Position numbers and translations under genes: made by a program | The notes under the pieces: model-generated | Seen by the model: the letters and a program-made list of their open reading frames with translations, nothing else | Database searches by the model: none | Told to the model about the DNA's origin: nothing | Assembly (NCBI GenBank): GCA_024654025.1 | Contig: JANLIR010000002.1 | Span: 101,639-165,638 of the forward strand | Length of the DNA stretch: 64,000 bases | Source of the DNA: Candidatus Wolfebacteria bacterium | Lineage (GTDB): Bacteria > Patescibacteriota > Minisyncoccia > UBA6257 > UBA9933 | Reading direction: 5' to 3' | Shown: one piece after another, positions 3,821 through 55,085 of the stretch | Numbering within the stretch: position 1 is the stretch's first letter | How the letters are laid out: each line of letters opens with the position of its first letter

Positions 3821-3829
3821 TTTATTTTC

Positions 3830-4498
3830 TTATGACGCGCTTGCGATTTTTAAATCTTTTTTCTCAATTGCTTGAGGGTTATATAAATTATAAAAAAGCT
3901 CAATTAGTTCTTCGTCATTTAACGGCACCGCTCTCAATCCTATTTGTTCAAGCCCAACTACAACCTGATCGGTTCTTTGATTCAATTGCATAATACGCTC
4001 TCCTAAATCCTCTTCTTGTTTTGCTTCGTCTTTTTCTTTTCTGCCGAAAAACGCGAAAAACGGAAGCTTTGAAAGAAAACTTTTTTGGGCTGTTTGGGAA
4101 ATATCCATTCCGTCATAGGGCACAACCGCAAAAAAGGTTTTTGCCATTATATCGTTTTGTTTCACAAACGAGCGGATAAATTCTATATATTCGGCGATTT
4201 GATTTTTCAAAAGCTCGTTCTGCTCTTCAGCCTGCCTTTGAGAAAGCATTTCTAAATAACCTTCTATATTCAACCGGCGGGAATGGATTATTATTTGCAC
4301 TGAAAAATCCAATGTGTTTAAAAAATTCTGGTAACCGCCGATTATGATATTTTGCTCTTCCTCTGACTTTAATTCAAAATTCGTTCCGCTAACCATCACA
4401 ACTCGCCGAAGACCTCCGCTTCTTAAAATAATTACTCCGTCCTTTATGTCTTCAATATCTACGAATTGTTGAGTTGAAATTGTTTCTTTTGCTGGCAT
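3830..4498 (-). CDS. Hypothetical cytoplasmic protein, T4SS-operon member
   Basis: ORF tightly packed between the PrgI-like gene and VirB4; no recognisable motif. Confidence 0.35.
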   Translation of the reverse strand: MPAKETISTQQFVDIEDIKDGVIILRSGGLRRVVMVSGTNFELKSEEEQNIIIGGYQNFLNTLDFSVQIIIHSRRLNIEGYLEMLSQRQAEEQNELLKNQIAEYIEFIRSFVKQNDIMAKTFFAVVPYDGMDISQTAQKSFLSKLPFFAFFGRKEKDEAKQEEDLGERIMQLNQRTDQVVVGLEQIGLRAVPLNDEELIELFYNLYNPQAIEKKDLKIASAS

Positions 4499-4543
4499 TT
4501 TTTTATTATAACCTTAATACTTAATACTTTCTACCGATTTTAA

Positions 4544-5101
4544 TTATCTGAAATCAACTCTTCTGGCCGCTTCCTTTTCACCGCTTGTTTTTCTAAAAAA
4601 ACTTACGCGTTCTGCCATTCTGGGTTTTGGAATAAATTTCTCGCGCTTAGGTAGAGGATTTTTTGTCGTCATTAAATCATCCCATAATTTTTTAATCGCT
4701 GGGGCAGGGTTGAATAAGCTTCCCAAACTCTCTCGCTGGGCTAAAACTTTTTCAGTTGGAATTATTTTAACTAGCGCTTTTTGCAGCTGGGGAAGTTTCG
4801 GAATTTTTATTATTACCTCTTCCGATTCCCGCTTCCATAAATAAAATCTCGGCTTCCATAGAAATCCGACGCTCGCTAAAAAAATCTTAGAAATCGACTG
4901 TCCGTTATACTTCGCAAATCCGAAAACCAAAGCTATTGCCACCAAAAGAGCGGTCGCTAAAATCCAGAAAAAAAAATTAAAGACAAAATAGCTAAGCAGG
5001 CTTATTCCTCCGGCAAAAACCAGATAAAGAACTTGTTTTAAAGTCAAAGGCCCGGCTATTTTATCCTCTATTTCTATAAATTGGGGAACCTGAAATTGCA
5101 T
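4544..5101 (-). CDS. PrgI/VirB3-like membrane protein
   Basis: Two N-terminal TM helices (LYLVFAGGISLLSYFVFNFFFWILATALLVAIALVF) and a charged C-terminal tail, lying 5' of the VirB4 gene as in Gram-positive-type T4SS. Confidence 0.5.
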   Translation of the reverse strand: MQFQVPQFIEIEDKIAGPLTLKQVLYLVFAGGISLLSYFVFNFFFWILATALLVAIALVFGFAKYNGQSISKIFLASVGFLWKPRFYLWKRESEEVIIKIPKLPQLQKALVKIIPTEKVLAQRESLGSLFNPAPAIKKLWDDLMTTKNPLPKREKFIPKPRMAERVSFFRKTSGEKEAARRVDFR

Positions 5102-5578: not shown

Positions 5579-6955
5579 TTATTCAACGATTTTTCTAAGG
5601 TCAATAACGTCTTCTTCAACCGGAATGTCTTTTAATTGTAATTCATCCGGCGATTTAGCTGCCGTTTTTTGTTCGGGCTTTTGTTCGATTTTAAACATTT
5701 GTTTTCGGGCATCTTCAAAAGCTTTTTTCTCCGCCGCTGCTTTTATGCTTAATCCAAACTCCGGTCTTGGAGCTGAAAAACCAATTTTTGCGCCGTTATC
5801 GATCTTTATCGAACTTTGCTCAACTAAAGGAACTTGTATTCTTTTCTCTTCTGTAATTCTTTCCGTTTGGAAAGTTTCCATTTTTTTGTCATTCGTTTCA
5901 TTAGCATGCATTCGTCCTTCGGTCTGCTCAGGACGACCTCCTCGAGTCTGAGTCTCGGAGTCGAAGACCTGAGCTTGCCGAATGGGTCGTATATTGGTAT
6001 CGCGTTGTTCTTTTTTCTCTTCCATTTTTACCACTTTAGGCTCGAAACCAATATTAATTTCTTTGCTTTGAGAAAAAACCTGAGACTGAAAAGGCTTTTC
6101 TTTTCCAAAAGGAGACATCGGCGTATTTAAATCGCTATAATGAACTACTCTGACATTTGGTTTCTCCATTTGTATCTTGTTTTCCTTTTTCTTTTCCACG
6201 TCAGCGCCAAAACTTATTTTTGCCGCCAAATCTGATGATTCTTTTCTTGCCGCCGGCTCTTGTCCGGAAGAAAAAGTAAACACTTCAGCCAAAGATTTTT
6301 TATCCGCCGCAAGCGGTGTTAATTCTGTTTCCTTATGTAAAATCATCGGCGCTTCTTCTTCGCCAAGTGATTTTTCCAAAGTTATTCCGCTGACCTTCGG
6401 CTCGATTTTTCCGAAAACCGTCGGTTCTTCTTTTTTAATTTCCTGTCTAAATTCCGGTTTTTTCAACACTACCGCTTCTGGAAATATTTCTTTCGACTTT
6501 ATCTCAATTGTTTCGCTTGAAATTCCAAGAGCTGATTTTGTTTTTAAATCAACAACGTCTTCTTTTGTTGCGGGCTTTAATTCAATTTTAGGCGCTCCCC
6601 AAGACAATGCCGATTTTGAAACAACCAACGGACTGTAAATTTTTTTAATTTCGTCTTTTAACGATATGAAAATCTTTTTATCAATCTCTTGATAAATCGA
6701 ATCAGCTAATTGTTTATTGACCTCCAGATTTTCGGCGATTTCTTTGCTCATATCTTCAATCGCCACAAATCCGGACAAAACCAAAGCGGTTAACTGCTCA
6801 ATAGTTAAAGTTTTTTCATCATCAAAATAATGAGATTGGCAAATATGCCGGACAGTTCCCATTACGCTCTCTGAATTAAGAGCGTTTTTTAAAATACTCG
6901 GCAAGTCATAAACGCGTTTTTGAAATTGTTGTTCGGTGATTAAAAAGTAGTCCAT
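5579..6955 (-). CDS. Hypothetical protein: ~100-aa structured N-terminus, then a long Lys/Glu-rich disordered region containing an in-frame 95-bp repeat module
   Basis: Low-complexity K/E/P-rich sequence; segment IRPIRQAQVFDSETQTRGGRPEQTEGRM is encoded by the repeat at 5909-6002. Confidence 0.4.
   Translation of the reverse strand: MDYFLITEQQFQKRVYDLPSILKNALNSESVMGTVRHICQSHYFDDEKTLTIEQLTALVLSGFVAIEDMSKEIAENLEVNKQLADSIYQEIDKKIFISLKDEIKKIYSPLVVSKSALSWGAPKIELKPATKEDVVDLKTKSALGISSETIEIKSKEIFPEAVVLKKPEFRQEIKKEEPTVFGKIEPKVSGITLEKSLGEEEAPMILHKETELTPLAADKKSLAEVFTFSSGQEPAARKESSDLAAKISFGADVEKKKENKIQMEKPNVRVVHYSDLNTPMSPFGKEKPFQSQVFSQSKEINIGFEPKVVKMEEKKEQRDTNIRPIRQAQVFDSETQTRGGRPEQTEGRMHANETNDKKMETFQTERITEEKRIQVPLVEQSSIKIDNGAKIGFSAPRPEFGLSIKAAAEKKAFEDARKQMFKIEQKPEQKTAAKSPDELQLKDIPVEEDVIDLRKIVE
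5890..6002. repeat. 95-bp GC-rich repeat module (cattcgtccttcggtctgctcaggacgacc...gaatgggtcgtatattggtatcg) inside a CDS; inverted copy at 25498-25613; truncated copy at 28488-28553
   Basis: ~94/95 identity between the 5909-6002 copy and the reverse complement of 25498-25591. Confidence 0.8.
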
Positions 6956-23398: not shown

Positions 23399-25072
23399 TT
23401 ATTCCCATTCTATCGGTCCGGTAACCCCTTTTATTTCATCAAAAGTGGTTATGCCGCTTATCACTTTTAATATTCCGTCCTGCTGCATTGTTGTCATTCC
23501 TTTATCCACGGCAAATTTATTAATCGCTGTTTCTCCTGCTTGCTTAGATATTAATTCTTCAACTTCTGAACCGACTTCCAAAAGCTCGTAAATCGCCACT
23601 CTTCCTTTATAACCCATACCCAAACAATTATCACAGCCTTTTGGCTCAAAAATTTTAATATCTTTATACTCGCCTTTATCCACTCTTTTGGGCAGTTTAT
23701 CTAAAAACTTTTTAATATTATTTTCCAAGTCTTTTTCTCCACCGGCTGGCGAATTAGCCTCAACTTTACAATTCTGACAAAGCCTCCGCACCAAACGCTG
23801 GGCTATTATTAATTTCAAAGCCGGCCCGATACTTACATTTTTTACTCCCAAATCCAAAAGCCGGGGAATGGCTCCGGCTGACCGATTAGCATGAATGGTT
23901 GAAAAAACTAGGTGGCCGGTTAGCGACGCTTGAATGCCGATTTCCGCGGTTTCTTTATCTCTAATTTCTCCGACTAATATAACGTCCGGATCTTGCCGCA
24001 TTAACGACTTTAATCCGCTGGCAAAAGTGTATCCCGCTTCTTCGTCGACTTGCGTTTGTTCAATCCCGTCAAGATGATACTCAATCGGATCTTCAATTGT
24101 TATTATTTTTATTTCCGGAGATTTTTTTGTTTTTAAAAAGGTATATAGAGTAGTTGTTTTCCCTGATCCGGTCGGACCGGTATTTAATATAAGTCCGTCC
24201 GGCCTTTCCAAATTCTTTTGGATTATTTCCAGATCATCGTCTCTAAGGCCCAAATCTTTAAGAGAGAGGTTTATCGAATCCGGATCTAGTAGTCGCATCA
24301 CAATAACTTCTCCGAATTCCGACGGCGCCAAAGCGACTCTCACTTCAACGTCTTTGCCGGCTAATTGAATGGTAAACCGGCCGTCCTGCGGTTTATTAGA
24401 AATATTTAACTTTAGCCCGGAAAGAAGTTTTACTCTGGAAACCAAAAATTGGTAAAAATTAGATTTTAAAACAAAAACATCTCGGAGCAATCCATCAATT
24501 CTAAGCCGTAGTTTAATATTTTTCCCTGTTGGTTCAAAATGAACATCAGACGCTCTATTTAACAAAGCGCCGGCTAAAATAATTTCGAAAACCTGTGCGG
24601 CGTTAAAAGATTCAAATTCCTGTTTTTCTAAAAATTCTTTAAACCCTCCTAAAGTTGAAAGTTCTTTTTTTAACTTTGAAACATCTTCTACTTCAACCTT
24701 GCCGGTTATTTTTTCAGTTTCAACCGGCGCGTATTTATAAAAATTAAAAGCGTGCTCCAAACCGCTTAATGAAACAACAAACACCGAATATTCGTAGCCC
24801 TTCTTAGAAAAATCGTCAAGAACTTTTTTTACAGCCGGACTGGCCGGATCAACACAGACCACGGCAAGTTTGTTTCTCTTTTTTTCAATAACCGCCATCT
24901 TAGCTTCTCTAGATATTTTTTCATCCACTAAAGCCAAGGCCTCAACAACTACCGGCGTTTTAGATAAATCGACGTATTTTAAATTTAAATTTACAGCCTT
25001 TCTTTGAGCGTCTCTTTCTTCAGCCTCTCGCTTCATTTTCGCCAATTTATCGGTTAAGTTGCCAAAAATCAT
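23399..25072 (-). CDS. pilB: Type II/IV secretion / type IV pilus assembly ATPase (GspE/PilB family)
   Basis: N-terminal T2SE_N-like domain; Walker A GPTGSGKTTTL; Cys tetrad CQNC...CDNC. Confidence 0.8.
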   Translation of the reverse strand: MIFGNLTDKLAKMKREAEERDAQRKAVNLNLKYVDLSKTPVVVEALALVDEKISREAKMAVIEKKRNKLAVVCVDPASPAVKKVLDDFSKKGYEYSVFVVSLSGLEHAFNFYKYAPVETEKITGKVEVEDVSKLKKELSTLGGFKEFLEKQEFESFNAAQVFEIILAGALLNRASDVHFEPTGKNIKLRLRIDGLLRDVFVLKSNFYQFLVSRVKLLSGLKLNISNKPQDGRFTIQLAGKDVEVRVALAPSEFGEVIVMRLLDPDSINLSLKDLGLRDDDLEIIQKNLERPDGLILNTGPTGSGKTTTLYTFLKTKKSPEIKIITIEDPIEYHLDGIEQTQVDEEAGYTFASGLKSLMRQDPDVILVGEIRDKETAEIGIQASLTGHLVFSTIHANRSAGAIPRLLDLGVKNVSIGPALKLIIAQRLVRRLCQNCKVEANSPAGGEKDLENNIKKFLDKLPKRVDKGEYKDIKIFEPKGCDNCLGMGYKGRVAIYELLEVGSEVEELISKQAGETAINKFAVDKGMTTMQQDGILKVISGITTFDEIKGVTGPIEWE

Positions 25073-32295: not shown

Positions 32296-35200
32296 TTACG
32301 TTAGGATGGCCGCGTCTTCACAAATAAATTTCGGCTGGTCGTCTTTCCATGAAACTCTGCCCTCGCCGATTATAATGTTATTTTCTTTCCAAATATCGCT
32401 TGTTTTTGTGAGCGCGCTGTTAAAAACCAGAACCTCTATTTCCGAATCAAAATCCTCAACTTTGGCAAAAATCATTGGTTGTCCGGTTTTGGTCAAAATT
32501 TTCTGTATTTTTGTTATTACTCCCGCTATTCGATGCCTCTTATTATACCCTCCTTTCCCGTTGCCGTTCGCCACCAACTCCCTGATAAATTGAACGTTTT
32601 TTTCTTCAAGTTTCGCGGCGTATTCATTCATTGGATGGCCTGATACGAATAAGCCTAGAAGCTCTTTCTCCCAAAGCAACCTGTCTTTGCTGGAAATTGG
32701 CATATCGGCCTTAAGACTTAAGGCGCCTCCGAAATACGTGTCTCCAAAAAGATTATTCTGCGTCGTATCTGCGCTTTTTTTATTTTGCTGGCTGAATCTT
32801 AAAATTTCGTCTAGATTGGCTAAAAGTTTTCCCCGGCTTATTTTAAGCGAATCAAATACTCCGGCTTTTATTAAACTCTCCAAAGATTTTTTGTTTAAAT
32901 CTTTATGCGTAACTCTTTTTAGAAAATCAATTAACTCTAAAAATGGTCCGCCCCTTTGCCTTTCTTCGATAATCGCTTCAACAATATTTGTTCCGACATT
33001 TTTTATCGCTAACAACCCAAAGCGGATATTTTTTCCTTCCGGCGTGAATTTTGTGAAACTGGAATTAATATCCGGCGGTAAAACCGCTATGCCCATTTTT
33101 TTCGCTTCGGTTATTAAAAACGCGGCTCTTTCCACATCGCCGCTGTCGGCGTTAAACAGCGCAGTCATAAACTCCAACGGATAATGCGCCTTGAGATATG
33201 CTGTTTGGTAACCAATTAAGGCGTAGCAAACGCTATGCGACTTATTGAAACCGTAACGGGCAAACGAAGGAAACAATTCCCAAATCTCATTCGCGCTTTT
33301 TTCTTCTATGCCATTATTTATCATTCCCTGAATAAGTTTTTCCTTCTGCGCGTCAAGAAGCTCTTTAATTTTTTTACCAATTGCTTTTCTTAAAGTATCT
33401 GCTTCGGACAAAGTAAAGCCGGCCAAGTCCCGCGCGATTTTCATCATCTGTTCCTGATAAATTCCGATTCCGTAAGTTCCTTTCAAAATCGGCTCAAGCC
33501 GCGGATGCAAATATTCGACTAATTCTTCCCCGTGTTTTCTCGCGATATAACGCGGCACCATGCCGGCCTCCAAAGGACCTGGTCTGTATAATGCGACCAT
33601 AGCCACCACATCGTCAAACTCTGTTGGTTTTAGATCTTTTAAATAACGGCGCATGCCCGATGACTCAAATTGAAACACGCCAACGCAATCGCCTTTTTGA
33701 AAAAGTTTAAATGTTTCCGGATTGTCCAATGGAATTTCGGAAATCTTTATTTCTTCCCCTTTTATTTCTCTGACTAACCTGACAACGTCTTCTATGATGG
33801 TTAAATTTTTAAGGCCAAGAATATCAATCTTTAACAACCCCAGGTCTTCAACATTGTGCATTTCAAACTGAGTAATAGTTATATTTTCCTGTTGGGGAGA
33901 ACGCTGAAGCGGTAGATAATTTATCAGTTCTTCATTTGAAATAACCACTCCGCAAGCGTGAACCGAAGCATGCCGAGCTACTCCTTCTAATTTTTTTGCC
34001 GCGTCTATTATTTTTTTAGCGTCAGGGCTGGTTTCATATAATTGCCTTAGCTCTGAAACAGCCTCCAAAGACTGAGCTAAATCCATATTAAACGGAATAA
34101 GCTTGGCTATCTGGTCGCAAAAACTGTAAGGCATGCCCAGGGCCCTTCCAGCGTCGCGAATAGACGCTCTGGCAGCCATTGTCCCGAAAGTGATTATTTG
34201 AGCAACCTTGTCTTCTCCATATTTATTCCTTACATAATCCAAAACCTCGTCCCTGCGAGTATCGGCAAAATCCAAATCAATATCCGGAAGCTGTATACGG
34301 TCGGGATTTAAAAATCTTTCAAAAAGCAAATCGTATTTTAAAGGATCCACATCGGTAATTCCCAAAATATAAGAAATAATGCTTCCGGCAGCCGAGCCTC
34401 TTCCAGGGCCGACCATAATTCCGTGCGCCTTAGCCCAATTCACAAAATCGGAAACGATTAAAAAATAGTCGGCGAAACCCATATTCTCAATAACGCCGAG
34501 TTCGTATTCAAAACGATTTTTTATTTCTTCGCTTATTTCCGGAAATCTTCGCGAAATTTGTTCATCGATTAATTTTCTTAAAAATTTATTGCTGTTAGTT
34601 TCTCCTTCGGGCAAAGAAAATTTCGGAAGATGGATTTTCCCTATGCTTAATTTGACGTCGCAGCGGCTGGAAATTTTATTTGTGTTTTCTAACGCTTCCG
34701 GCAAATCTTTAAAAAGTTCCGCCATAATTTCCGGAGGCCGCATTGAAAAATCATCGGCGCGCAAACTCAAGCGGTCGTCATCTTCAACTTTATTTCCGGT
34801 TTGCACCGCTAAAAGAATATCGTGATATTTTCCGTCGTCAGAATTTAAGTAATGAATATCTTGAGTGGCAACAAGAGGAATGTTTAATTTTTTTCCGAGA
34901 TCGATTATTCCGTTTTTAACTTTTTCCATTCCTTCGATATTCGGGTGGTGCCAAACTTCCAGAAAAAAATTATTTTCTCCGAAAATGTTTTGATATTCGC
35001 GCGCAACTTTTTCCGCGTCGGTAAATTTATTTTCTAAAATTAATTGGGGAATTTCTCCGCCCAAACATCCCGACATCGCGATAAGGCCTTCGCTGTACTG
35101 TTTTAAAAGTTCTTTGTCCGCGCGCGGTTTATAATAAAATCCCTCAAGATGGGCTTTGGTGGAAATTTTTATTAAATTCTGCCAACCGGTTTGGTTTTCG

Positions 35201-35472
35201 GCTAATAAAGTAAGGTGGCGATATTTATTTTCTTTTCCATTTTTCTCAAATCGGGAACTTGGAGCGATATAGGCCTCCATTCCCAAAATCGGTTTGATTC
35301 CGGCTTTGATTGCTTTCTTATAAAATTCAACCGCGCCGTAAAGATTGCCGTGGTCCGTCAAAGCCAGCGCCTCCATTCCTAATTCTTTGGCGCGGGAAAC
35401 AAGTTCGTCTATTTTAATAAGTCCATCAAGGAGAGAAAAATGCGAGTGAGTATGTAGATGGACAAACTTCAT
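32296..35472 (-). CDS. dnaE: DNA polymerase III alpha subunit
   Basis: PHP domain HLHTHSHFSLLDG at N-terminus; 1058 aa. Confidence 0.9.
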   Translation of the reverse strand: MKFVHLHTHSHFSLLDGLIKIDELVSRAKELGMEALALTDHGNLYGAVEFYKKAIKAGIKPILGMEAYIAPSSRFEKNGKENKYRHLTLLAENQTGWQNLIKISTKAHLEGFYYKPRADKELLKQYSEGLIAMSGCLGGEIPQLILENKFTDAEKVAREYQNIFGENNFFLEVWHHPNIEGMEKVKNGIIDLGKKLNIPLVATQDIHYLNSDDGKYHDILLAVQTGNKVEDDDRLSLRADDFSMRPPEIMAELFKDLPEALENTNKISSRCDVKLSIGKIHLPKFSLPEGETNSNKFLRKLIDEQISRRFPEISEEIKNRFEYELGVIENMGFADYFLIVSDFVNWAKAHGIMVGPGRGSAAGSIISYILGITDVDPLKYDLLFERFLNPDRIQLPDIDLDFADTRRDEVLDYVRNKYGEDKVAQIITFGTMAARASIRDAGRALGMPYSFCDQIAKLIPFNMDLAQSLEAVSELRQLYETSPDAKKIIDAAKKLEGVARHASVHACGVVISNEELINYLPLQRSPQQENITITQFEMHNVEDLGLLKIDILGLKNLTIIEDVVRLVREIKGEEIKISEIPLDNPETFKLFQKGDCVGVFQFESSGMRRYLKDLKPTEFDDVVAMVALYRPGPLEAGMVPRYIARKHGEELVEYLHPRLEPILKGTYGIGIYQEQMMKIARDLAGFTLSEADTLRKAIGKKIKELLDAQKEKLIQGMINNGIEEKSANEIWELFPSFARYGFNKSHSVCYALIGYQTAYLKAHYPLEFMTALFNADSGDVERAAFLITEAKKMGIAVLPPDINSSFTKFTPEGKNIRFGLLAIKNVGTNIVEAIIEERQRGGPFLELIDFLKRVTHKDLNKKSLESLIKAGVFDSLKISRGKLLANLDEILRFSQQNKKSADTTQNNLFGDTYFGGALSLKADMPISSKDRLLWEKELLGLFVSGHPMNEYAAKLEEKNVQFIRELVANGNGKGGYNKRHRIAGVITKIQKILTKTGQPMIFAKVEDFDSEIEVLVFNSALTKTSDIWKENNIIIGEGRVSWKDDQPKFICEDAAILT

Positions 35473-35580
35473 ATCGATTTCATTATAGGTGTTAAAAAAA
35501 TTAAAATCAAAATTGACTAAATCTCAAAAAATTTTTTAATTTTTCCTTCCTGTTGCTTTCTTAAACTAAAAAACCTAAAG

Positions 35581-35609
35581 TTGACAAATTATTGTGTTTT
35601 TGATATTAT
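35581..35609 (+). promoter_or_regulatory. Consensus sigma70-type promoter TTGACA-N17-TATTAT
   Basis: ttgaca 35581-35586, tattat 35604-35609; SD aaagggg lies 7 nt before the ATG at 35685. Confidence 0.5.
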
Positions 35610-35684
35610 ATGATAATAAATTTGGTCTTTCCCAATTTTACATATCCCGAAAACGCTGAAAAATCACAAAGAAAGGGGTGCGAA

Positions 35685-36269
35685 ATGAAAACCAGGACGA
35701 AAAAAGCGCTGTTTTTAGGATTTTTGTCTGTTTTCGCGGTTTTCGCCGCAGCATGCTCAACCATGCCCATCAACAGAAGCGAGATGGTTCCGCTAAACCG
35801 GTGGAACCAAGACTCGCGAATCGGCCTCATCATCGTAGAAGGCCAGCCCTCAATCAATATGTGGTTCAAAGACGAAACCGGACGGACAATTGAATTCTGG
35901 ACTGAAAAAGGCTCGTCTCCTTCGATGACTTTCAACAACAGATCGCCAATCAGAATTTACGTCCACCAAGTGCCGGCGATTGGGAATTATCAAATTATTG
36001 TAGAGAGTTTCTACTACAAAACCTTGCTCTTCCCGCCGGGAGTCCGATACCCTGTGCGGCTTCAACCGCAGAATTACTACATAACTGTCGGCCACAACCC
36101 GGTCGCCTACCAGGATTACGAATTCACCAAAACTTGGTGGGGCTGGGTTCTCCGCATCAACACAGGATTTATCCCGCCGGAAGACACCGGAATGCCCACC
36201 GTTGATATCCAAGGAACCGGATTTATCAAAGACATCGTGGACGGTCTTGGAAGGAGGGGCTATCGATGA
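35685..36269 (+). CDS. Putative lipoprotein (higher-GC cassette gene 1)
   Basis: MKTRTKKALFLGFLSVFAVFAAAC is a signal peptide with a lipobox-like AAAC; local GC clearly above neighbours; start chosen at Met26 of the tracked ORF because of the SD. Confidence 0.5.
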   Translation: MKTRTKKALFLGFLSVFAVFAAACSTMPINRSEMVPLNRWNQDSRIGLIIVEGQPSINMWFKDETGRTIEFWTEKGSSPSMTFNNRSPIRIYVHQVPAIGNYQIIVESFYYKTLLFPPGVRYPVRLQPQNYYITVGHNPVAYQDYEFTKTWWGWVLRINTGFIPPEDTGMPTVDIQGTGFIKDIVDGLGRRGYR

Positions 36270-36676
36270 AATACAAAATCCTTCTTCTACTGTTTGCGGT
36301 CTTTCCGGCCTGCGCCACAACCGCCACTCTGCCGCAAGTAACGATGATGAGATACGCGATTCCGGAAATCAATATGATCCGGGGCGGTGCTCCACCAGAA
36401 CTTCCGCCGACGTATGACAAATTCAAAGACCCATCGCTTATGGTTTTCCAAAACCAGAGCGAGGGCGTCGCAACGATCGTTATTGACAGCAAGAACAGCG
36501 AAAAGATTATCTTGTTACCGAGAAAAATATCGCCGGATATTTATTTAGAACCCGGCAAACACAAAATCGCTATCACCGTTGTTATTGCCCGGCAACACTA
36601 CACCACCGACCTCAAACAGAATCGAGAAATAACTATCGAACTAACAGGATACTCCCAAATCATTCCGATCCACTAA
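36266..36676 (+). CDS. Secreted protein/lipoprotein (higher-GC cassette gene 2), translationally coupled by an ATGA overlap
   Basis: MKYKILLLLFAVFPAC signal peptide; 4-nt overlap with the upstream gene. Confidence 0.5.
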   Translation: MKYKILLLLFAVFPACATTATLPQVTMMRYAIPEINMIRGGAPPELPPTYDKFKDPSLMVFQNQSEGVATIVIDSKNSEKIILLPRKISPDIYLEPGKHKIAITVVIARQHYTTDLKQNREITIELTGYSQIIPIH

Positions 36677-36740
36677 GCCTTCTATCCCGCCTCGGAATTT
36701 CCCGAACCCGCCTAAATTTCCGTTTTCCGCTCTTTTCACC

Positions 36741-36777
36741 CAGCCCCGAGACCTTTCGTCGACGGGCTGTTTTTTTA
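36741..36777 (+). terminator. Intrinsic terminator (cagccc...gggctg + T7)
   Basis: seen in sequence after the stop of the cassette. Confidence 0.5.
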
Positions 36778-36870
36778 ATATTTATCTTTGACTTTCACTT
36801 CCTTAATTCCTAATATTAGCTTGTCGTTCATTAACTAATTCCTAACTACTAACTCCTAGTTGCTATTCTC

Positions 36871-37401
36871 ATGTCTGGTCACTCCCATTGGTTGGGAATA
36901 AAACACAAAAAAGAAACAACCGATAAAAAACGCGGCGCTTTATTTTCTAAACTTCTAAACGTTGTTACCGTTACCGCCAAAAAAGAACCCAACCCTCAAT
37001 TCAATCCGACTTTGCGCTCCGCAATCGATAAAGCAAAACAATATAATGTCCCCCAAGATAATATTGAAAAAGCAATTAAACGCGCTTCGGAAAAATCCGA
37101 TAATTTAGAGGAGCTGATTATGGAAGCTTATGGTCCGGAAGGCGTTGGAATTTTAATAGAAGCCGTTACCGACAATAAAAATCGCACGGTAGCTGAAACT
37201 AAAAAAATTTTATCCGACCACGAAGCTAAGTGGGCTGATCCGGGAAGTGTTTTATGGACTTTTGAAAAAACCGTTGAAGGCTGGCAAGCAAAATTTAAAA
37301 ACGAAATGACTTCTGTCGGAAAAGAAAAATTAAAAACGCTTATAGAAGATTTAGAAAACCACGATGATATCCAGCGAATAACAACTAATACTAATTTATA
37401 A
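36871..37401 (+). CDS. yebC: YebC/PmpR-family transcriptional regulator (short)
   Basis: MSGHSHWLGIKHKKETTDKKRGALFSKL is the canonical YebC N-terminus. Confidence 0.75.
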   Translation: MSGHSHWLGIKHKKETTDKKRGALFSKLLNVVTVTAKKEPNPQFNPTLRSAIDKAKQYNVPQDNIEKAIKRASEKSDNLEELIMEAYGPEGVGILIEAVTDNKNRTVAETKKILSDHEAKWADPGSVLWTFEKTVEGWQAKFKNEMTSVGKEKLKTLIEDLENHDDIQRITTNTNL

Positions 37402-37402
37402 T

Positions 37403-37900
37403 ATGAAAATCTTAGGTATTGACCCTGGCAGTACGCGCGCTGGCTATGGATTAATAGAAAAACATGGCCGCGATTTAAAACTTATAAAAAGCGGCTTGTT
37501 AAAAATATCCTCTCAAGACAAAAACGTTCGCCTCTTGGAACTTTCAAAATCATTCGCCTCTCTTTTAAAAAAACAAAAGCCTGATTTTGTGGCTATAGAA
37601 AAACTTTTTTTTATGAAAAATCTTAAAACCGCTCTGGAGGTCGCCCAATCGCGCGGCGTTTTATTGCTAATAGCGACTTCTTTAAAAATTCCAATAATTG
37701 AATTGTCCCCTTCGGAAGTTAAACTAAACATCGCCGGCTACGGCAGCGCCAACAAAAAACTGGTGGCGGATATGGTTTTTAAAATATTAAAGATAAAAAA
37801 ATTGCATGTTTTAGACGATGTCTCAGACGCAATTGCGATTGCTATTGTTGCCGCTAATCAGATACGCTGGTTATCAACAATTGACAAAAAGAATAAATAA
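37403..37900 (+). CDS. ruvC: Holliday junction resolvase RuvC
   Basis: ILGIDPGSTRAGYGL; catalytic Asp/Glu pattern; yebC-ruvC synteny. Confidence 0.85.
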   Translation: MKILGIDPGSTRAGYGLIEKHGRDLKLIKSGLLKISSQDKNVRLLELSKSFASLLKKQKPDFVAIEKLFFMKNLKTALEVAQSRGVLLLIATSLKIPIIELSPSEVKLNIAGYGSANKKLVADMVFKILKIKKLHVLDDVSDAIAIAIVAANQIRWLSTIDKKNK

Positions 37901-51299: not shown

Positions 51300-52510
51300 T
51301 ACTTGCGTGAACGTTTTCTTGATTGATAGCTGGAGGGGCATATTATTCCCGGAATCAGCGGGGAGTGGTAGGGAACGCGGGGGCCGGAACGAACCAGGAT
51401 GCCCCAGGTGTAATAGGGGGCAGCCGGTATAGACCAGGAGCACCACTTTTCAACAGGGCAGTGGCTACACGGGTCCTTATAGCCGGCGGACCACAGGGCG
51501 TGGTTCTGGCGCAGGTCTTCCGCCTCGGTGAAGCGCATAGCCTCTTTTGCTTTACGGAAGGGGCGCATATGGGAAACAGTCTTTGGTTTGGCTTCTTCGC
51601 TGACGGGCACCAGTGAGCTTTCCGGTTTCTGGGCGAAGGTGATGTTCTGAAATTGCTCCGCGCAAAGATCTCGTGAAAGTAGCCATAGAGCCGGGTTGAT
51701 TACTAAGTGGCTCATACCGTGCTTCAGGAGAAAATTCTGTGACCATTTGGCGATGGTGTCCATAAATTTCTCGCTTACCCGCATGGTCATTTTTCCTTTG
51801 AGGACCGGGCTGTGCAGGCCTTCCCTGGGCTCGAATGGTTTAGCGAAACCAATAAGCTGAAGGATTTCGGTTTCCCAGAGGACCCTCATTGCGTGAAAGT
51901 CCACAGGGATGGGGCCGGGGAAAATCGGGATGAAGTTTTTTTCCTGCAACCAGATTACCAACAAGGAAAAAATCTTGCGCCGCATGCCTTTGAAGCCGGC
52001 CGGGTTGTTATGATAGTCCACCCGGCGGAAGGACTCTTCAAATTCCGTGACGCCCCAGAAGACATTGCGGATGTCGTCGCCCCAATGTTCGTGGAGCGTG
52101 ACCGCGTTGCGGTGCCAGGAGGCGGTGTGTTCTTTGAGCTTGTAGCTTAGAGAGCCAGCGCCGACCTCGCCGGTACCGTTACCGTTGAGGATTTTAGGCG
52201 CGACTGCCATGAATGCGTTCTCTATCTTGCTTGGAGTCCAGTAGTTAGCAACGATTTTCGGGTTGTAGAGCTCGGGCAGATCCTGGTGGAGTTGCCAAAG
52301 GAATTTCATGGTGTCGCCGCTTACAATTCCGCCTCTTTCGAACAGCGATAGGAAGAAGAGCCAGTTCGCGTACTCGCGCTTGCCTACCTCAGGGACGAAT
52401 CTGTCCTGAGGCAGGATGAAGTCAGAGTAAATTCCCGTCCTTTCCTTGTACGGTTTTTCGAGCGCTTTAAATACCGCGAGCGCTCGCTCTTCGTCAAACT
52501 TGAGCTTCAT
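51299..52510 (-). CDS. Hypothetical protein of the higher-GC island (403 aa) with C-terminal Cys-x2-Cys-x5-Cys cluster
   Basis: Perfect SD aaggagg 8 nt before the ATG; GC ~52%; DPCSHCPVEKWCSW; no family recognised. Confidence 0.4.
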   Translation of the reverse strand: MKLKFDEERALAVFKALEKPYKERTGIYSDFILPQDRFVPEVGKREYANWLFFLSLFERGGIVSGDTMKFLWQLHQDLPELYNPKIVANYWTPSKIENAFMAVAPKILNGNGTGEVGAGSLSYKLKEHTASWHRNAVTLHEHWGDDIRNVFWGVTEFEESFRRVDYHNNPAGFKGMRRKIFSLLVIWLQEKNFIPIFPGPIPVDFHAMRVLWETEILQLIGFAKPFEPREGLHSPVLKGKMTMRVSEKFMDTIAKWSQNFLLKHGMSHLVINPALWLLSRDLCAEQFQNITFAQKPESSLVPVSEEAKPKTVSHMRPFRKAKEAMRFTEAEDLRQNHALWSAGYKDPCSHCPVEKWCSWSIPAAPYYTWGILVRSGPRVPYHSPLIPGIICPSSYQSRKRSRK

Positions 52511-52644: not shown

Positions 52645-53199
52645 ATGACCGAATATTTTACCGAAGCCTTGGTGTTGGCGAAAAAAGAAAACGGAGAAGC
52701 TGACGCGACAGTGCATCTTTATTCTGAAAAACTGGGTAGAGTTATTGCTAAAGCTAAGGGATTAAAAAGAATCAAATCAAAATTAAGCGCGTATTTGGAG
52801 CCGCTTAATTTTATAAATATCCGCTTGGTTGGAAATGGGCGCATGCAAGTGGTGGACGCTTTGCCTTCAGAAAGAAATAATTTTCAAGAAATTAAAATTT
52901 CAGCCGAAAAACTGGCGAAGTTTTTAACTATCACAAACTTTATTAACGAAACGGTTTTTGAATTTCAGCCAGACCAGCAGCTTTGGCATACGATTGTATA
53001 TATTTTCAAAAACAACCTTGGATTAGAAGACGCGTATAAAATAATTTTGCGCGACTTAGGGTTTGACCCTCAGTTCGCAGTTTGCGAAATCTGCCAAAAA
53101 GAAAATCCGGAATTTTTTAATAAAGAAAACCAAACCTTTTTGTGCAAAGCGCATTCTTCAAAAGAAGGCAAAAAAGAGCTAATATTAATAAAAGTATGA
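52645..53199 (+). CDS. recO: DNA repair protein RecO (short form)
   Basis: N-terminal OB-fold pattern EALVL...GEADATVHLYSEKLGRVIAKAKG; C-terminal Cys motif CEICQK...FLCKAH. Confidence 0.6.
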   Translation: MTEYFTEALVLAKKENGEADATVHLYSEKLGRVIAKAKGLKRIKSKLSAYLEPLNFINIRLVGNGRMQVVDALPSERNNFQEIKISAEKLAKFLTITNFINETVFEFQPDQQLWHTIVYIFKNNLGLEDAYKIILRDLGFDPQFAVCEICQKENPEFFNKENQTFLCKAHSSKEGKKELILIKV

Positions 53200-55085
53200 G
53201 CCTAGAAGATCTCGAAAAAAATTTATACGGCCTCGGAAGAAAAAAAGAAAGCAAAAAAGAATCGGAAAAAGAAACTCCAAAAATTCCCGCGCAAAAAGAA
53301 AGTCAAGAAGAAGAAAAAAGTTCAGCGCCGGAAGAAAATCAATCAACCCTGAAATGGAGCGGAGTTTCCGATAAAATAAACCAAATGACAAGCTCTCCAA
53401 TTTTTTTAAAAGTCAGCCAGTTTTCAAAAGTTATTTTTTGGCTGGTTGTTGCCGCGCTTATTATTGCCGGGTCATTCGCCGGCTATTATTTATCGCAGTA
53501 TTTAAAAACTAAAGATTTTGTTTTTGAAGCCAACGCGCCTAGTAAGGTTTTGGCCGGCCAGCCGTTTGAAATAAAAATAAACATAGAAAACAAATCGAAA
53601 AACACCATGCGGGATTCGCTTGTCGATATTCAAATTCCCGAAGGAGTTGTCGGACTGGGAAAATACAGCGACAGGCAGGTTATCGAAGAAAACATAGGAA
53701 CTTTGGAAAGCGGCGATTCTTATCAAAAATCTTTTTCGCTGGCGATTTTAGACACAAACGATCCGGCAAAGAAAATAGATGTTTATTTTTCGTATTTGCC
53801 CCCGAATTTAAATACCAAGTTTGAAAAAAAACAAACCATTGAAATTTTTGCAGACCAGCCGGCAGTAGGACTTAATTTGAGCGCTCCGCAAAAAGTTTTT
53901 TCCGGCGAACAATTTGAAATAACCGCAAGCTACAAAAATCTTTCCGATCATAACTTTTCAAAAGTACGTTTGGAAATGGCTTATCCGGCCGCGTTTAAAT
54001 TCAAAGAATCGTCGCCGGCCCCCACAAGCAGTAACAATATCTGGATAACTTCAATGCCCGGCGGAATAGAAAATAATGTTTCCATAAAAGGAAGCATCGT
54101 CGGCCCGGACAGTATATTTTTTGATGTGAAGGCTAAAATTTTTATCGAATTAGAAGGCAAAGAATACCCGCTTGGTGAAAAAACCGCCAATCTTGGCATT
54201 GCTTCCTCGCCCCTTTCTTTAAGCATTATCCCCAACAATGATCCTAATTTTGTGGCTTTTCCGGGAGACACGATAAATTACAGCGTCAGTTATGGCAATA
54301 ACACCGAAGATAATTTACAGGACGCGGTTATTAAAGTAAAAGTTTCCGGAGTGATGTTTGATTTAGCGAGTTATCGAGGCAATGGTTTTTTTGATTCAAA
54401 CAGCAATACGGTTATTTGGAACGCTTCGCAGGAACCGGGGCTTAAAAATCTTTCCCAAGGCGCTAAAGGGACAGTTTCCTTTTCCTTTAAAACAAAAACA
54501 ATTTATCCGATAAAAAAATTGTCTGACAAAAATTTTTCTTTAAAAGCCGAAGGAGAAATTTCCTCGCCTACCGTTCCTTATTATATTTCCAGCGACAAAA
54601 CAGTAGGCGTCAACAGCGCTGAAACAAAAATCGGAGGCAGAACCGAAATAAGCGCTTATGCCGGGTACAATAAAAAAGGCCCTTATCCGCCCCAAGTTAA
54701 TAAACCCACCCGATATCTTGTCCATTGGATTATAAAAAACTATGTAACCGATAAAAAAGACGTGAAAATTAAGGCGGTTTTGCAGTCCGGCGCTTCGTGG
54801 ACTGGAACAGTTACCGCTAACATTGACACTGACGGACTCCCTACCTATAATGAACGAACTCAAGAAGTTTCCTGGGATATCGCAAGGGTAATTGCCAATA
54901 AAGGCGTAATAGGAAAGCCAATAGAAACAACGTTTGAAATTGAAATAGCGCCCAGTATTTCGCAAGCCAACGCGCTTTTGCCGCTTTTGTCGGCTGTTCA
55001 GCTCACGGCAAGCGACGAGTTTACTGGTCTTCCGGTGAACACAGGAGCGGATCCCCTTCAAACCGTTGATATTGTAAGACAATAA
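53196..55085 (+). CDS. Large secreted/surface protein with repeated beta-rich (DUF11-like) modules
   Basis: TM anchor after a Lys/Glu-rich N-terminus; repetitive Ig-like segments; start overlaps the recO stop (ATGA). Confidence 0.45.
   Translation: MSLEDLEKNLYGLGRKKESKKESEKETPKIPAQKESQEEEKSSAPEENQSTLKWSGVSDKINQMTSSPIFLKVSQFSKVIFWLVVAALIIAGSFAGYYLSQYLKTKDFVFEANAPSKVLAGQPFEIKINIENKSKNTMRDSLVDIQIPEGVVGLGKYSDRQVIEENIGTLESGDSYQKSFSLAILDTNDPAKKIDVYFSYLPPNLNTKFEKKQTIEIFADQPAVGLNLSAPQKVFSGEQFEITASYKNLSDHNFSKVRLEMAYPAAFKFKESSPAPTSSNNIWITSMPGGIENNVSIKGSIVGPDSIFFDVKAKIFIELEGKEYPLGEKTANLGIASSPLSLSIIPNNDPNFVAFPGDTINYSVSYGNNTEDNLQDAVIKVKVSGVMFDLASYRGNGFFDSNSNTVIWNASQEPGLKNLSQGAKGTVSFSFKTKTIYPIKKLSDKNFSLKAEGEISSPTVPYYISSDKTVGVNSAETKIGGRTEISAYAGYNKKGPYPPQVNKPTRYLVHWIIKNYVTDKKDVKIKAVLQSGASWTGTVTANIDTDGLPTYNERTQEVSWDIARVIANKGVIGKPIETTFEIEIAPSISQANALLPLLSAVQLTASDEFTGLPVNTGADPLQTVDIVRQ

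What the first reader, a model, noticed from the sequence alone, without database searches (positions are those of the whole stretch)
35581..36790. Higher-GC two-gene lipoprotein cassette with textbook promoter and terminator inserted between dnaE and yebC
Two overlapping (ATGA) genes encode signal-peptide/lipobox proteins (MKTRTKKALFLGFLSVFAVFAAAC...; MKYKILLLLFAVFPAC...) with no recognisable domains. The segment is visibly more GC-rich than its neighbours, which generates spurious antisense ORFs. It has a perfect TTGACA-N17-TATTAT promoter, a strong SD and a clean terminator. Together these suggest recent horizontal acquisition of a surface-protein module.
Basis: partly seen in the sequence, partly recalled or inferred. 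Interest (0 to 1): 0.5.

Follow-up and report, generated by a model that had tools for sequence, protein, structure and literature searches.

The report
Resident, fast-swapping two-lipoprotein operon
The two GC-rich genes between dnaE and yebC are a real, self-contained operon for two small membrane-anchored proteins of unknown function. It is an old, conserved fixture of this group of ultra-small (Patescibacteria) bacteria whose alleles are swapped by recombination, not a recent foreign insertion.

Summary
Two ATGA-overlapping genes lie between dnaE and a short yebC: lipA (35685-36269, 194 aa) and lipB (36266-36676, 136 aa). They have a near-consensus extended -10 promoter, strong ribosome-binding sites and a hairpin plus U7 terminator. 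GC is 0.48 against 0.39 for the window, and GC3 is 0.60/0.55 against a mean of 0.38.

The interpretation of recent horizontal acquisition is not supported.
- The pair sits at the same place in every genus-level relative found.
- It sits directly upstream of ruvC-PBP1a in lineages whose shared neighbour genes are only about 57-64% identical.
- The GC excess follows the genes in almost every lineage, so it is a property of the family, not a foreign scar.

Both proteins belong to small families with no Pfam or NCBIfam model, apparently restricted to Patescibacteria. About 30 representatives exist for lipA and 10 for lipB, each with a conserved lipobox cysteine. Both are predicted as beta-sandwiches with no close solved relative.

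The locus is a recombination hot spot.
- Near-identical strains differ by a mosaic tract of about 1.2 kb.
- Congeneric genomes carry two deeply diverged cassette types (about 40% identity) between conserved promoter and terminator anchors.

My best reading is a co-expressed pair of exposed envelope lipoproteins whose alleles are exchanged. Function is unknown. Interest is modest.

The parts
35482..35510 (-). Divergent dnaE promoter candidate (TTGATT-17-TATAAT) inside the highly conserved dnaE-lipA intergenic block
   Evidence: Consensus scan. The TATAAT hexamer is invariant in 8 lineages.
35581..35609 (+). lipA-lipB promoter: -35 TTGACA (35581-35586), 17-nt spacer with a TG extension (35601-35602), -10 TATTAT (35604-35609)
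   Evidence: The -35 is invariant; the -10 is TATTAT or TATTGT in 8 lineages.
35610..35684 (+). 5' leader of about 75 nt with a conserved block (TTTGGTCTTTCCCAA) and the Shine-Dalgarno AAAGGGGT at 35672-35679
   Evidence: No Rfam match.
35685..36269 (+). lipA: 194-aa prolipoprotein. It has a signal peptide, a lipobox at Cys24, a linker, a beta-sandwich at about residues 45-175 and a C-terminal helix at 180-190.
   Evidence: ORF; family of about 30 representatives; lipobox pattern; AF2 pLDDT 87.7; dN/dS 0.12-0.20.
36250..36259 (+). Shine-Dalgarno (GAAGGAGGGG) for lipB, embedded in the 3' end of lipA. With the ATGA overlap at 36266-36269 it suggests translational coupling.
   Evidence: Sequence; ORF coordinates.
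36266..36676 (+). lipB: 136-aa exported protein with an invariant Cys16. The lipobox is degenerate here (FPAC). A Pro-rich linker of about 40 residues is followed by a beta-sandwich at residues 56-136.
   Evidence: AF2 pLDDT 74.7; dN/dS 0.16-0.22.
36673..36715 (+). Remnant homologous to the 3' end of a third gene (orf3, 107-109 aa) that follows lipB in type II cassettes
   Evidence: blastn of window 36673-36775 against L006 4302-4199, 83% identity. orf3 lies at L006 4260-4589.
36741..36776 (+). Intrinsic terminator: hairpin CAGCCC...GGGCUG (36741-36769) followed by U7 (36770-36776)
   Evidence: Fold at -14.2 kcal/mol, z -3.8. The outer stem is conserved in L003, L006 and L048, and a different but equivalent hairpin occurs in L004.
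36788..36816 (+). Separate yebC promoter candidate (TTGACT-17-TAATAT), marking the end of the cassette transcription unit
   Evidence: conserved across lineages.
36035..37235 (.). Recombination tract relative to near-identical strains. It has 2-31 differences per 100 bp (most bins 2-16) plus a 171-bp indel, while flanking dnaE has about 0.2% differences and ruvC has none.

Best explanation
This is a resident, vertically maintained bicistronic operon of a Patescibacteria (CPR) lineage. It encodes two small co-functioning envelope lipoproteins.

**Proposed mechanism**
- A near-consensus sigma-70 promoter with an extended -10 drives one mRNA. Sequence and conservation are shown; activity is inferred.
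- lipA is translated from a good Shine-Dalgarno site. lipB is coupled to it through an ATGA overlap and has its own strong site.
- A hairpin plus U7 terminator stops transcription before the separate yebC promoter.
- Each precursor is exported. It is lipid-modified at the invariant Cys by Lgt and LspA (inferred).
- This leaves a flexible linker (about 20 residues in lipA, about 40 Pro-rich residues in lipB) carrying a compact beta-sandwich domain on the outer face of the single membrane.
- Near-strict co-occurrence and coupled translation suggest the two proteins act together, probably as a heteromer (inferred).

**Evolutionary behaviour**
- Because these proteins would be exposed, the locus behaves like a variable surface-protein locus. 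It evolves faster than its neighbours but under purifying selection.
- It is a hot spot of homologous recombination.
- It exists in at least two deeply diverged allelic cassette types. These are exchanged between congeners through conserved anchors: promoter, leader and signal peptide on the left, terminator on the right.

**Composition**
- The elevated GC is an equilibrium property of these genes, not a foreign scar.
- It comes partly from a Pro/Gly/Thr/Trp/Tyr-rich, Lys/Glu/Leu-poor composition, and mostly from synonymous C-ending codon preference.

**Function**
- The biochemical role is unknown. The most likely roles are an abundant structural, adhesive or receptor-like component of the envelope.
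For: **Real genes under constraint**
- dN/dS is 0.12-0.22, against 0.04-0.10 for neighbouring genes.
- lipA-family members are of similar length with conserved motifs. A lipobox-type pattern is found in most of them (26 of 29 retrieved P-numbered representatives).
- The lipB family has 10 clusters with an invariant Cys.

**Pairing**
- lipA and lipB are adjacent in every locus that contains lipB.

**Expression signals**
- The promoter, leader and terminator are conserved across 8 lineages.

**Residency**
- The position is the same in L001-L006 and L048-L050.
- lipA-lipB-ruvC-PBP1a is conserved in L051 and L063, whose neighbour genes are about 57-64% identical to the window's.

**Composition is intrinsic to the family**
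- Cassette GC exceeds the local background in all lineages examined.
- In the window, C/(C+T) at two-fold pyrimidine-ending codons is 0.72 against 0.35 for neighbours (p = 1e-8). G/(A+G) is unchanged at 0.21 against 0.19. A GC-rich donor should have raised both.
- Amino-acid composition alone predicts GC of 0.43 for lipA and 0.41 for lipB, against 0.49 and 0.46 observed.

**Recombination**
- Against L004 and L005, dS is 0.012-0.016 in dnaE and 0 in ruvC. It is 0.06-0.09 in lipA, 0.21-0.22 in lipB and 0.17 in yebC, and a 171-bp indel is present.

**Allelic types**
- By housekeeping genes, L006 groups with the window and L003 (ThrS 91-92%, DnaE 89-91%). Its cassette groups with the outlier L048.
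- Homology between the window and L006 breaks inside the signal peptide (about 35726) and resumes at 36673.
- Type I and type II lipA are as diverged from each other (39-44% depending on the alignment) as either is from lipA in lineages whose neighbour genes are about 57-64% identical.

**Fold**
Against: - There are no expression, localisation or interaction data. Lipidation, heteromer formation and surface exposure are all inferences.
- The window's lipB lipobox is non-canonical (FPAC). Some type II copies have E or K at -1, so lipB may not be lipidated everywhere.
- lipA occurs without lipB in L056 and L065, so the partnership is not obligatory.
- The pure C-over-T codon signal holds mainly within the window's genus. 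More distant lineages show G-ending enrichment instead of or in addition to it. The cause of the GC excess is therefore unresolved between translational selection, GC-biased gene conversion at a recombination hot spot, and repeated import.
- The one ribosomal protein gene candidate in the window shows only weak C preference (0.41). This does not support a general codon bias in highly expressed genes.
- The lipA tree is a neighbour-joining tree without support values.
Confidence: 0.6

Rival explanations
1. A recently acquired genomic islet. On this view a foreign, higher-GC surface-protein module was inserted between dnaE and yebC by horizontal transfer.
For: - The composition is atypical: GC 0.48 against 0.39, with GC3 z-scores of 3.5 and 2.8.
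- The unit has its own promoter and terminator.
- Very few homologues were found in a database of 5.8 billion proteins.
Against: - The pair is present at the same site in all nine genus-level loci, and is syntenic with ruvC-PBP1a where neighbour genes are about 57-64% identical.
- The GC offset persists in every lineage and tracks the host background.
- Purine-ending codons are not shifted in the window.
- There are no tRNA, integrase, repeat or phage hallmarks.
Confidence: 0.04
2. An envelope-biogenesis accessory pair. On this view the two lipoproteins regulate or scaffold the adjacent class A penicillin-binding protein, functionally analogous to LpoA/LpoB, or assist other cell-wall enzymes.
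For: - The block lipA-lipB-(yebC)-ruvC-small ORF-PBP1a is retained in the window, L001, L003, L006, L051 and L063.
- In L059 a LysM-M23 peptidase lies about 3.4 kb downstream of the pair.
Against: - The cassette is a separate transcription unit. yebC and ruvC lie between it and PBP1a.
- In other lineages the pair lies next to ksgA-uvrD, rnpA or pilB without a PBP.
- There is no sequence or fold similarity to LpoA or LpoB.
- Deep allelic replacement is unusual for a partner of a conserved enzyme.
Confidence: 0.15
3. Accessory lipoproteins, pilotin-like or TssJ-like, of a type IV pilus or of the type IV secretion apparatus used by these epibiotic bacteria.
For: - A PilB-type ATPase (T2SSE) lies near lipA in L056, L058 and L065.
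- A T4SS-like cluster lies in the same window at 2-5 kb.
Against: - These fold matches are no better than those to dozens of unrelated beta-sandwiches.
- pilB is divergently oriented and separated by other genes.
- In the window the pilB-like gene (23399-25072) is 10 kb away and the T4SS cluster 30 kb away.
Confidence: 0.1
4. The two cassette types arose by ancestral tandem duplication followed by differential loss, or by very fast in-situ divergence, rather than by exchange between lineages.
For: - Both types occupy exactly the same site with the same promoter and terminator.
- The window retains a remnant of the type II third gene.
- lipB diverges faster than its neighbours.
Against: - Within each type, dS matches that of neighbouring genes and dN/dS is only 0.12-0.22. 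In-situ divergence therefore cannot produce about 40% identity while housekeeping proteins stay 85-93% identical.
- No genome with both types in tandem was seen.
- Recombination tracts are directly visible between near-identical strains.
Confidence: 0.15

Closest known systems
Generic bacterial lipoproteins (Lgt/LspA substrates; PROSITE PS51257 lipobox)
   Same: - Each has an N-terminal basic segment, a hydrophobic stretch and a Cys at position 16-24.
- lipA matches the lipobox pattern, and the Cys is conserved across both families.
   Different: - The window's lipB has Pro at -2 and fails the strict pattern.
- No known lipoprotein family (Pfam or NCBIfam) matches the mature domains.
Variable surface-protein or antigen loci replaced by homologous recombination in conserved flanks. 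Examples from general knowledge are capsule and O-antigen loci, pilin alleles and mycoplasma surface lipoproteins.
   Same: - Deeply diverged allelic cassettes occupy one chromosomal site flanked by conserved housekeeping genes.
- Near-identical strains show mosaic tracts.
- Cassette relationships are incongruent with housekeeping relationships.
   Different: - The cassette is only two or three small genes of unknown function.
- There are no phase-variation repeats or silent donor copies in the 64 kb window.
- Selection within a type is purifying, not detectably positive.
Ig-like, CnaB or transthyretin-like beta-sandwich domains, including small lipoproteins such as TssJ and secretin pilotins
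   Different: - Sequence identity is 3-17%.
- No isopeptide-bond or other diagnostic motifs were tested.
- The resemblance is at the level of general fold only.
LpoA/LpoB lipoprotein activators of class A PBPs
   Same: They are lipoproteins encoded near a class A PBP in several lineages.
   Different: - There is no sequence or structural similarity.
- The organism is presumably monoderm, so an outer-membrane-anchored activator model does not apply.
- The linkage to the PBP is not universal.

Membership tests
Bacterial lipoprotein (Lgt/LspA substrate) | Lipobox [LVI][ASTVI][GAS]C or the PROSITE PS51257-type pattern, with Cys at position 15-35 and K/R near the N-terminus | tested here: met
   - lipA has ...AVFAAAC at Cys24 and K/R at positions 2, 4, 6 and 7, and passes the pattern.
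- 26 of the 29 retrieved P-numbered lipA-family representatives pass it.
- The Cys is at least 90% conserved.
Bacterial lipoprotein (Lgt/LspA substrate) | The same lipobox pattern in the second protein, lipB | tested here: inconclusive
   - The window's lipB has F-P-A-C, and the Pro at -2 fails the strict pattern.
- 7 of 11 family members pass, and the Cys is invariant.
Bacterial lipoprotein (Lgt/LspA substrate) | The host encodes Lgt and LspA, and the protein is acylated | not testable with these tools
   Only 64 kb of the genome is available. No lgt or lspA was seen among the window ORFs scanned. Acylation needs an experiment.
Recently acquired genomic island | Atypical base composition or codon usage | tested here: met
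   GC is 0.48 against 0.39, with GC3 z-scores of 3.5 and 2.8.
Recently acquired genomic island | Absent from the same site in close relatives | tested here: not met
   It is present in L001-L006 and L048-L050 (DnaE 84-100% identical).
Recently acquired genomic island | Mobility hallmarks: adjacent tRNA, integrase or transposase, flanking direct repeats, phage genes | tested here: not met
   - The tRNAs are at 48.5 and 59.6 kb only.
- Only short AT-rich chance repeats were found.
- There are no PHROG hits and no relatives on viral contigs.
Recently acquired genomic island | A compositional signature matching a foreign donor, with all GC-ending codons raised, that decays towards the host | tested here: not met
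   - In the window only C-ending codons are raised and G-ending codons are unchanged.
- An offset of similar size persists over host backgrounds of 0.35-0.50 GC.
Any curated protein family (Pfam-A, NCBIfam, PHROGs, PADLOC) or solved structure by sequence | A significant profile match | tested here: not met
   Zero families were matched in any library. No PDB sequence match had E below 0.05.
CnaB / transthyretin-like / Ig-like beta-sandwich | Fold similarity clearly above background | tested here: inconclusive
   [not shown]
Intrinsic (Rho-independent) terminator | A GC-rich hairpin followed directly by a U-tract, conserved in relatives | tested here: met
   - The hairpin at 36741-36769 is followed by U7, and folds at -14.2 kcal/mol with z -3.8.
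- Equivalent hairpins occur in L003, L004, L006 and L048.
- The simple scanner missed it because of the internal loop.

The most novel reading that the evidence does not exclude
The lipA/lipB pair could be the exposed recognition module of these ultra-small, presumably host-attached Patescibacteria. It would act either as an adhesin for the host cell or as a phage receptor. Its two ancient cassette types would be kept in the population by frequency-dependent selection and shuffled between species by recombination, making it a specificity-determining 'serotype' locus in the Candidate Phyla Radiation.
Probability: 0.15. Interest if true: 0.6.

Novelty: new member of a known kind. Interest (0 to 1): 0.3.

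Why it matters
For genome scanning, this locus is a caution. A GC-rich, self-contained cassette with orphan proteins looks like a horizontal insertion, yet it is an old resident whose composition is intrinsic to the genes.

Biologically, the work defines two small uncharacterised lipoprotein families that appear restricted to Patescibacteria. They are almost always encoded as a coupled pair, carry strong expression signals, and sit at a recombination hot spot with exchangeable allelic types.

If the proteins are abundant and exposed on the surface, they are reasonable candidates for host attachment or phage recognition. Very few surface components are understood in this group of organisms. Nothing here overturns current knowledge.

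Tried and rejected
**Searches that returned nothing informative**
- Pfam, NCBIfam, PHROGs and PADLOC scans of both proteins gave no hits. The type II third ORF (Pfam, PHROGs, PADLOC) and the 61-aa ORF of L004 (PHROGs only) also gave none.
- PDB sequence searches with family profiles gave nothing significant.
- A profile-profile comparison of lipA against lipB aligned only the signal peptide and lipobox, so the two are not detectable paralogues.
- Rfam searches of the leader and cassette gave nothing.
- The viral-contig scan gave no relatives.
- The search for flanking repeats and tRNAs gave nothing convincing.
- The literature search for described Patescibacteria lipoprotein loci found nothing relevant.

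**Tests that were inconclusive or negative**
- Promoter significance from the match alone: 4 sites observed against 2.8 expected, so not significant. Conservation across lineages was used instead.
- Synteny in more distant relatives (DnaE 55-67% identical): rnhB, nusB and rnc lie upstream of dnaE, with no yebC. These genomes say nothing about an empty site.
- The idea that the GC excess is purely high-expression C-ending codon bias holds in the window's genus but not uniformly in distant lineages.

**Technical failures**
- The first attempts to search collections with the full lipA alignment failed because it had no sufficiently conserved stretch.
Full report
**1. What is there**

Between dnaE (32296-35472, minus strand; PHP, pol III alpha, finger, HHH and OB domains) and a short yebC (36871-37401) followed by ruvC (37403-37900) lie two plus-strand ORFs.
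- lipA is 35685-36269 (194 aa).
- lipB is 36266-36676 (136 aa).
- They overlap in ATGA.

A promoter-like site TTGACA-17-TATTAT sits at 35581-35609. It has TG one base upstream of the -10 and matches 11 of 12 consensus positions. Sites of this quality are not rarer than chance in the window: 4 were found against 2.8 ± 1.8 in shuffles.

Conservation gives the support that the match alone does not. In an alignment of the dnaE-lipA intergenic region from eight lineages, the -35 is invariant. The -10 is TATTAT or TATTGT, and the whole block is more conserved than synonymous sites of the flanking genes.

Shine-Dalgarno sequences precede both genes: AAAGGGGT at 35672-35679 and GAAGGAGGGG at 36250-36259.

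Downstream, a hairpin at 36741-36769 plus U7 folds at -14.2 kcal/mol with z = -3.8. The simple scanner missed it because of an internal loop. Its outer stem CAGCCC/GGGCUG recurs in L003, L006 and L048, and L004 has a different but equivalent hairpin.

A separate conserved promoter-like site for yebC follows at 36788-36816. The cassette is therefore its own transcription unit.

**2. Composition**

- The cassette is 0.482 GC against 0.389 for the window (z 2.6).
- GC3 is 0.595 and 0.547 against a gene mean of 0.379 ± 0.061 (z 3.5 and 2.8). Only the ORF at 51299-52510 is higher.
- With genome-typical synonymous usage, the amino-acid composition alone would give 0.43 and 0.41 GC. Most of the excess is therefore synonymous.
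- The excess is specifically C over T. At two-fold pyrimidine-ending codons, C/(C+T) is 0.72 against 0.35 in neighbours (p = 1e-8), and ATC is 0.60 against 0.18.
- Gln, Lys and Glu codons are unchanged, with G/(A+G) at 0.21 against 0.19.

**3. The genes are real and belong to small, undescribed families**

Neither protein matches Pfam, NCBIfam, PHROGs or PADLOC.

A word-indexed search of 5.8 billion proteins found only 2-3 close homologues each. An exhaustive HMMER profile search of 1.84 billion representatives found 35 hits for lipA. About 30 of these are proteins of 155-261 aa with shared motifs (EMFP, NxDP, NGR, LPxGxYRVEVxPFYY, WGW, TGxIP). A lipobox-type pattern is found in 26 of the 29 retrieved P-numbered representatives.

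A profile search for lipB found 10 clusters of 135-217 aa with an invariant Cys and a DPSLV-F motif.

lipA passes a PROSITE-type lipobox pattern. The window's lipB (F-P-A-C) does not, though 7 of 11 relatives do.

dN/dS against four relatives is 0.12-0.20 for lipA and 0.16-0.22 for lipB. Selection is purifying but more relaxed than in dnaE, yebC and ruvC (0.04-0.10).

lipA and lipB share nothing beyond the signal peptide.

**4. Structure**

- AlphaFold2 with the family alignments gives lipA pLDDT 87.7. The model has a signal helix, a low-confidence linker, a beta-sandwich at about residues 45-175 and a C-terminal helix at 180-190.
- lipB has pLDDT 74.7, with a disordered Pro-rich segment at residues 17-55 and a beta-sandwich at 56-136.
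- Foldseek finds nothing with E below 0.01.
- No functional assignment follows from the fold.

**5.

Every genus-level relative recovered carries the pair between dnaE and yebC.

| Locus | DnaE identity to window |
|---|---|
| L004/L005 | 100% (over the portion recovered) |
| L002/L003 | 93% |
| L006 | 90% |
| L048-L050 | 89% |
| L001 | 87% |

Further out, the pair appears in other neighbourhoods.
- It sits directly upstream of ruvC, a small ORF and PBP1a in L051. In L063 the same block is followed by dnaN on the opposite strand. L063's neighbour genes are 57-64% identical to the window's.
- lipA sits directly upstream of yebC in L056.
- The pair lies next to rnpA (L054), pilB and ruvB (L058), or ksgA-uvrD (L059, L064).
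- lipA and lipB are adjacent wherever lipB occurs. lipA is alone in L056 and L065.

In Patescibacteria with DnaE 55-67% identical, the region upstream of dnaE holds rnhB, nusB and rnc, with no yebC. No 'empty' dnaE-yebC junction was seen anywhere.

The organism is a Patescibacteria (CPR) bacterium. Its relatives are groundwater MAGs labelled Patescibacteria or Wolfebacteria.

**6. The GC excess travels with the genes**

| Locus | Cassette GC | Local background GC |
|---|---|---|
| L001 | 0.46 / 0.43 | 0.36 |
| L006 | 0.50 / 0.45 | 0.41 |
| L048 | 0.47 / 0.50 | 0.41 |
| L051 | 0.48 / 0.48 | 0.42 |
| L054 | 0.54 | 0.47 |
| L056 | 0.50 | 0.40 |
| L058 | 0.59 / 0.62 | 0.50 |
| L059 | 0.41 / 0.45 | 0.35 |
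| L063 | 0.48 / 0.51 | 0.42 |
| L064 | 0.50 / 0.51 | 0.42 |

An offset that tracks each host background is an equilibrium property, not a decaying foreign signal. Within the window's genus the shift is C-over-T only. In distant lineages G-ending codons are raised as well or instead.

The cause is therefore not settled. Three candidates remain:
- translational selection in a strongly expressed operon;
- GC-biased gene conversion at a recombination hot spot;
- repeated import of alleles.

**7. What is unusual: recombination and allelic cassette types**

*Mosaic tract between near-identical strains.* Against L004 and L005, dnaE has dS of 0.012-0.016 and ruvC has 0. In contrast, lipA has 0.06-0.09, lipB 0.21-0.22 and yebC 0.17. 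Differences per 100 bp are 0-2 across dnaE. They rise to 2-31 (most bins 2-16) from about 36035 to 37235, then return to 0 in ruvC. A 171-bp indel in this tract carries a 61-aa ORF in L004 and L005. This is an imported tract of about 1.2 kb.

*Two cassette types between species.* L006 carries a cassette whose lipA is 41-42% and lipB 26-31% identical to the window's, depending on the alignment. It also has a third ORF of 109 aa. Its neighbours are 88-92% identical to the window's.

Nucleotide homology between the window and L006 runs through the promoter, the leader and the first ~40 nt of lipA (the signal peptide MKTRTKKAL). It breaks at about 35726 and resumes at 36673, through the terminator.

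The housekeeping proteins differ in detail, but each places L006 closer to the window and L003 than to L048. ThrS, YebC and RuvC make L048 the most distant genome. The cassette instead groups (window, L001, L003) against (L006, L048).

Type I and type II lipA are as diverged from each other (39-44%, depending on the alignment) as either is from lipA of lineages whose neighbour genes are about 57-64% identical (41-46%). Within a type, dS matches that of the neighbours. In-situ acceleration cannot explain this gap.

The best reading is allele replacement by homologous recombination through conserved anchors. Long-maintained polymorphism is an alternative. Tandem duplication with differential loss cannot be excluded.

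Both types occur in one sample: L003 and L050 both come from ERZ27247322.

**8. Mechanism (committed, with status)**

- *Shown:* gene structure, expression signals and their conservation, family membership, purifying selection, residency, and recombination with type incongruence.
- *Inferred:* Sec export, lipidation at the conserved Cys, display of linker-tethered beta-sandwich domains on the outer face of the membrane, joint action of the two proteins, and high expression.
- *Unknown:* the biochemical role.

I consider an abundant exposed envelope or adhesion/receptor pair most likely. The rivals are a PBP-associated or a pilus/secretion-associated accessory role, each resting on weak neighbourhood evidence and generic fold hits.

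**9. Verdict**

This is a new, uncharacterised member of a known kind: a small lipoprotein operon that behaves as a variable surface locus. Interest is modest.

Noticed in passing
window 50131-52510 (- strand): This is a second, stronger GC-rich islet of two orphan ORFs (340 and 403 aa). GC is 0.47 and 0.54, and GC3 reaches 0.67. Neither ORF matches Pfam, PHROGs or PADLOC. The 403-aa ORF is enriched in both C- and G-ending codons. A homologous pair (48% and 42% identity) lies directly upstream of dnaE in the distant relative L040.
   Followed up: partly
window 2072-5101 (- strand): A type IV secretion or conjugation-like gene cluster is present, with a TraG/VirB4-type P-loop ATPase, a TraC-like protein and a PrgI-family protein. 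A PD-(D/E)XK nuclease lies next to it.
   Followed up: no
L004 3256-3441; L005 2159-2344 (corresponds to window about 36677-36777): Strains whose dnaE is 99.8% identical to the window's carry a 61-aa ORF with its own ribosome-binding site. It lies in a 171-bp indel between lipB and yebC, and the window lacks it. No family matches it.
   Followed up: partly
L006 4260-4589 (-); L048 7984-8307 (+); remnant at window 36673-36715: Type II cassettes have a third gene of 107-109 aa (N-terminus MPNIEIHG / MLNIEIHG; GC3 0.58-0.66). It has no Pfam, PHROG, PADLOC or PDB match. The window retains only about 40 nt of its 3' end, just after the lipB stop codon.
   Followed up: partly
L006 5858-6000 region; L048 about 6559-6790: A palindromic, MITE-like insert of 150-240 bp lies between the dnaE start and the conserved promoter block in L006 and L048. 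The window and the other type I loci lack it.
   Followed up: no
window 36871-37401: yebC is unusually short at 176 aa. Its best Pfam match to the TACO1/YebC second-and-third-domain model covers only profile positions 1-56 of 160. It is shorter still (146 aa) in L003.
   Followed up: no
window 35473-35684: The dnaE-lipA intergenic region is more conserved across eight lineages than synonymous sites of the flanking genes. It holds divergent promoter candidates and a conserved leader block, TTTGGTCTTTCCCAA. No Rfam family matches it.
   Followed up: partly
window 54823 (+): A perfect TTGACA-17-TATAAT consensus lies inside the long ORF at 53142-55085, just upstream of the ORF starting at 55085.
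   Followed up: no
window 40523-43114: dnaN and dnaA lie about 4-7 kb from the cassette. In other lineages the pair sits next to rnpA, yidC and jag. The lipoprotein operon is therefore often origin-proximal.
   Followed up: no
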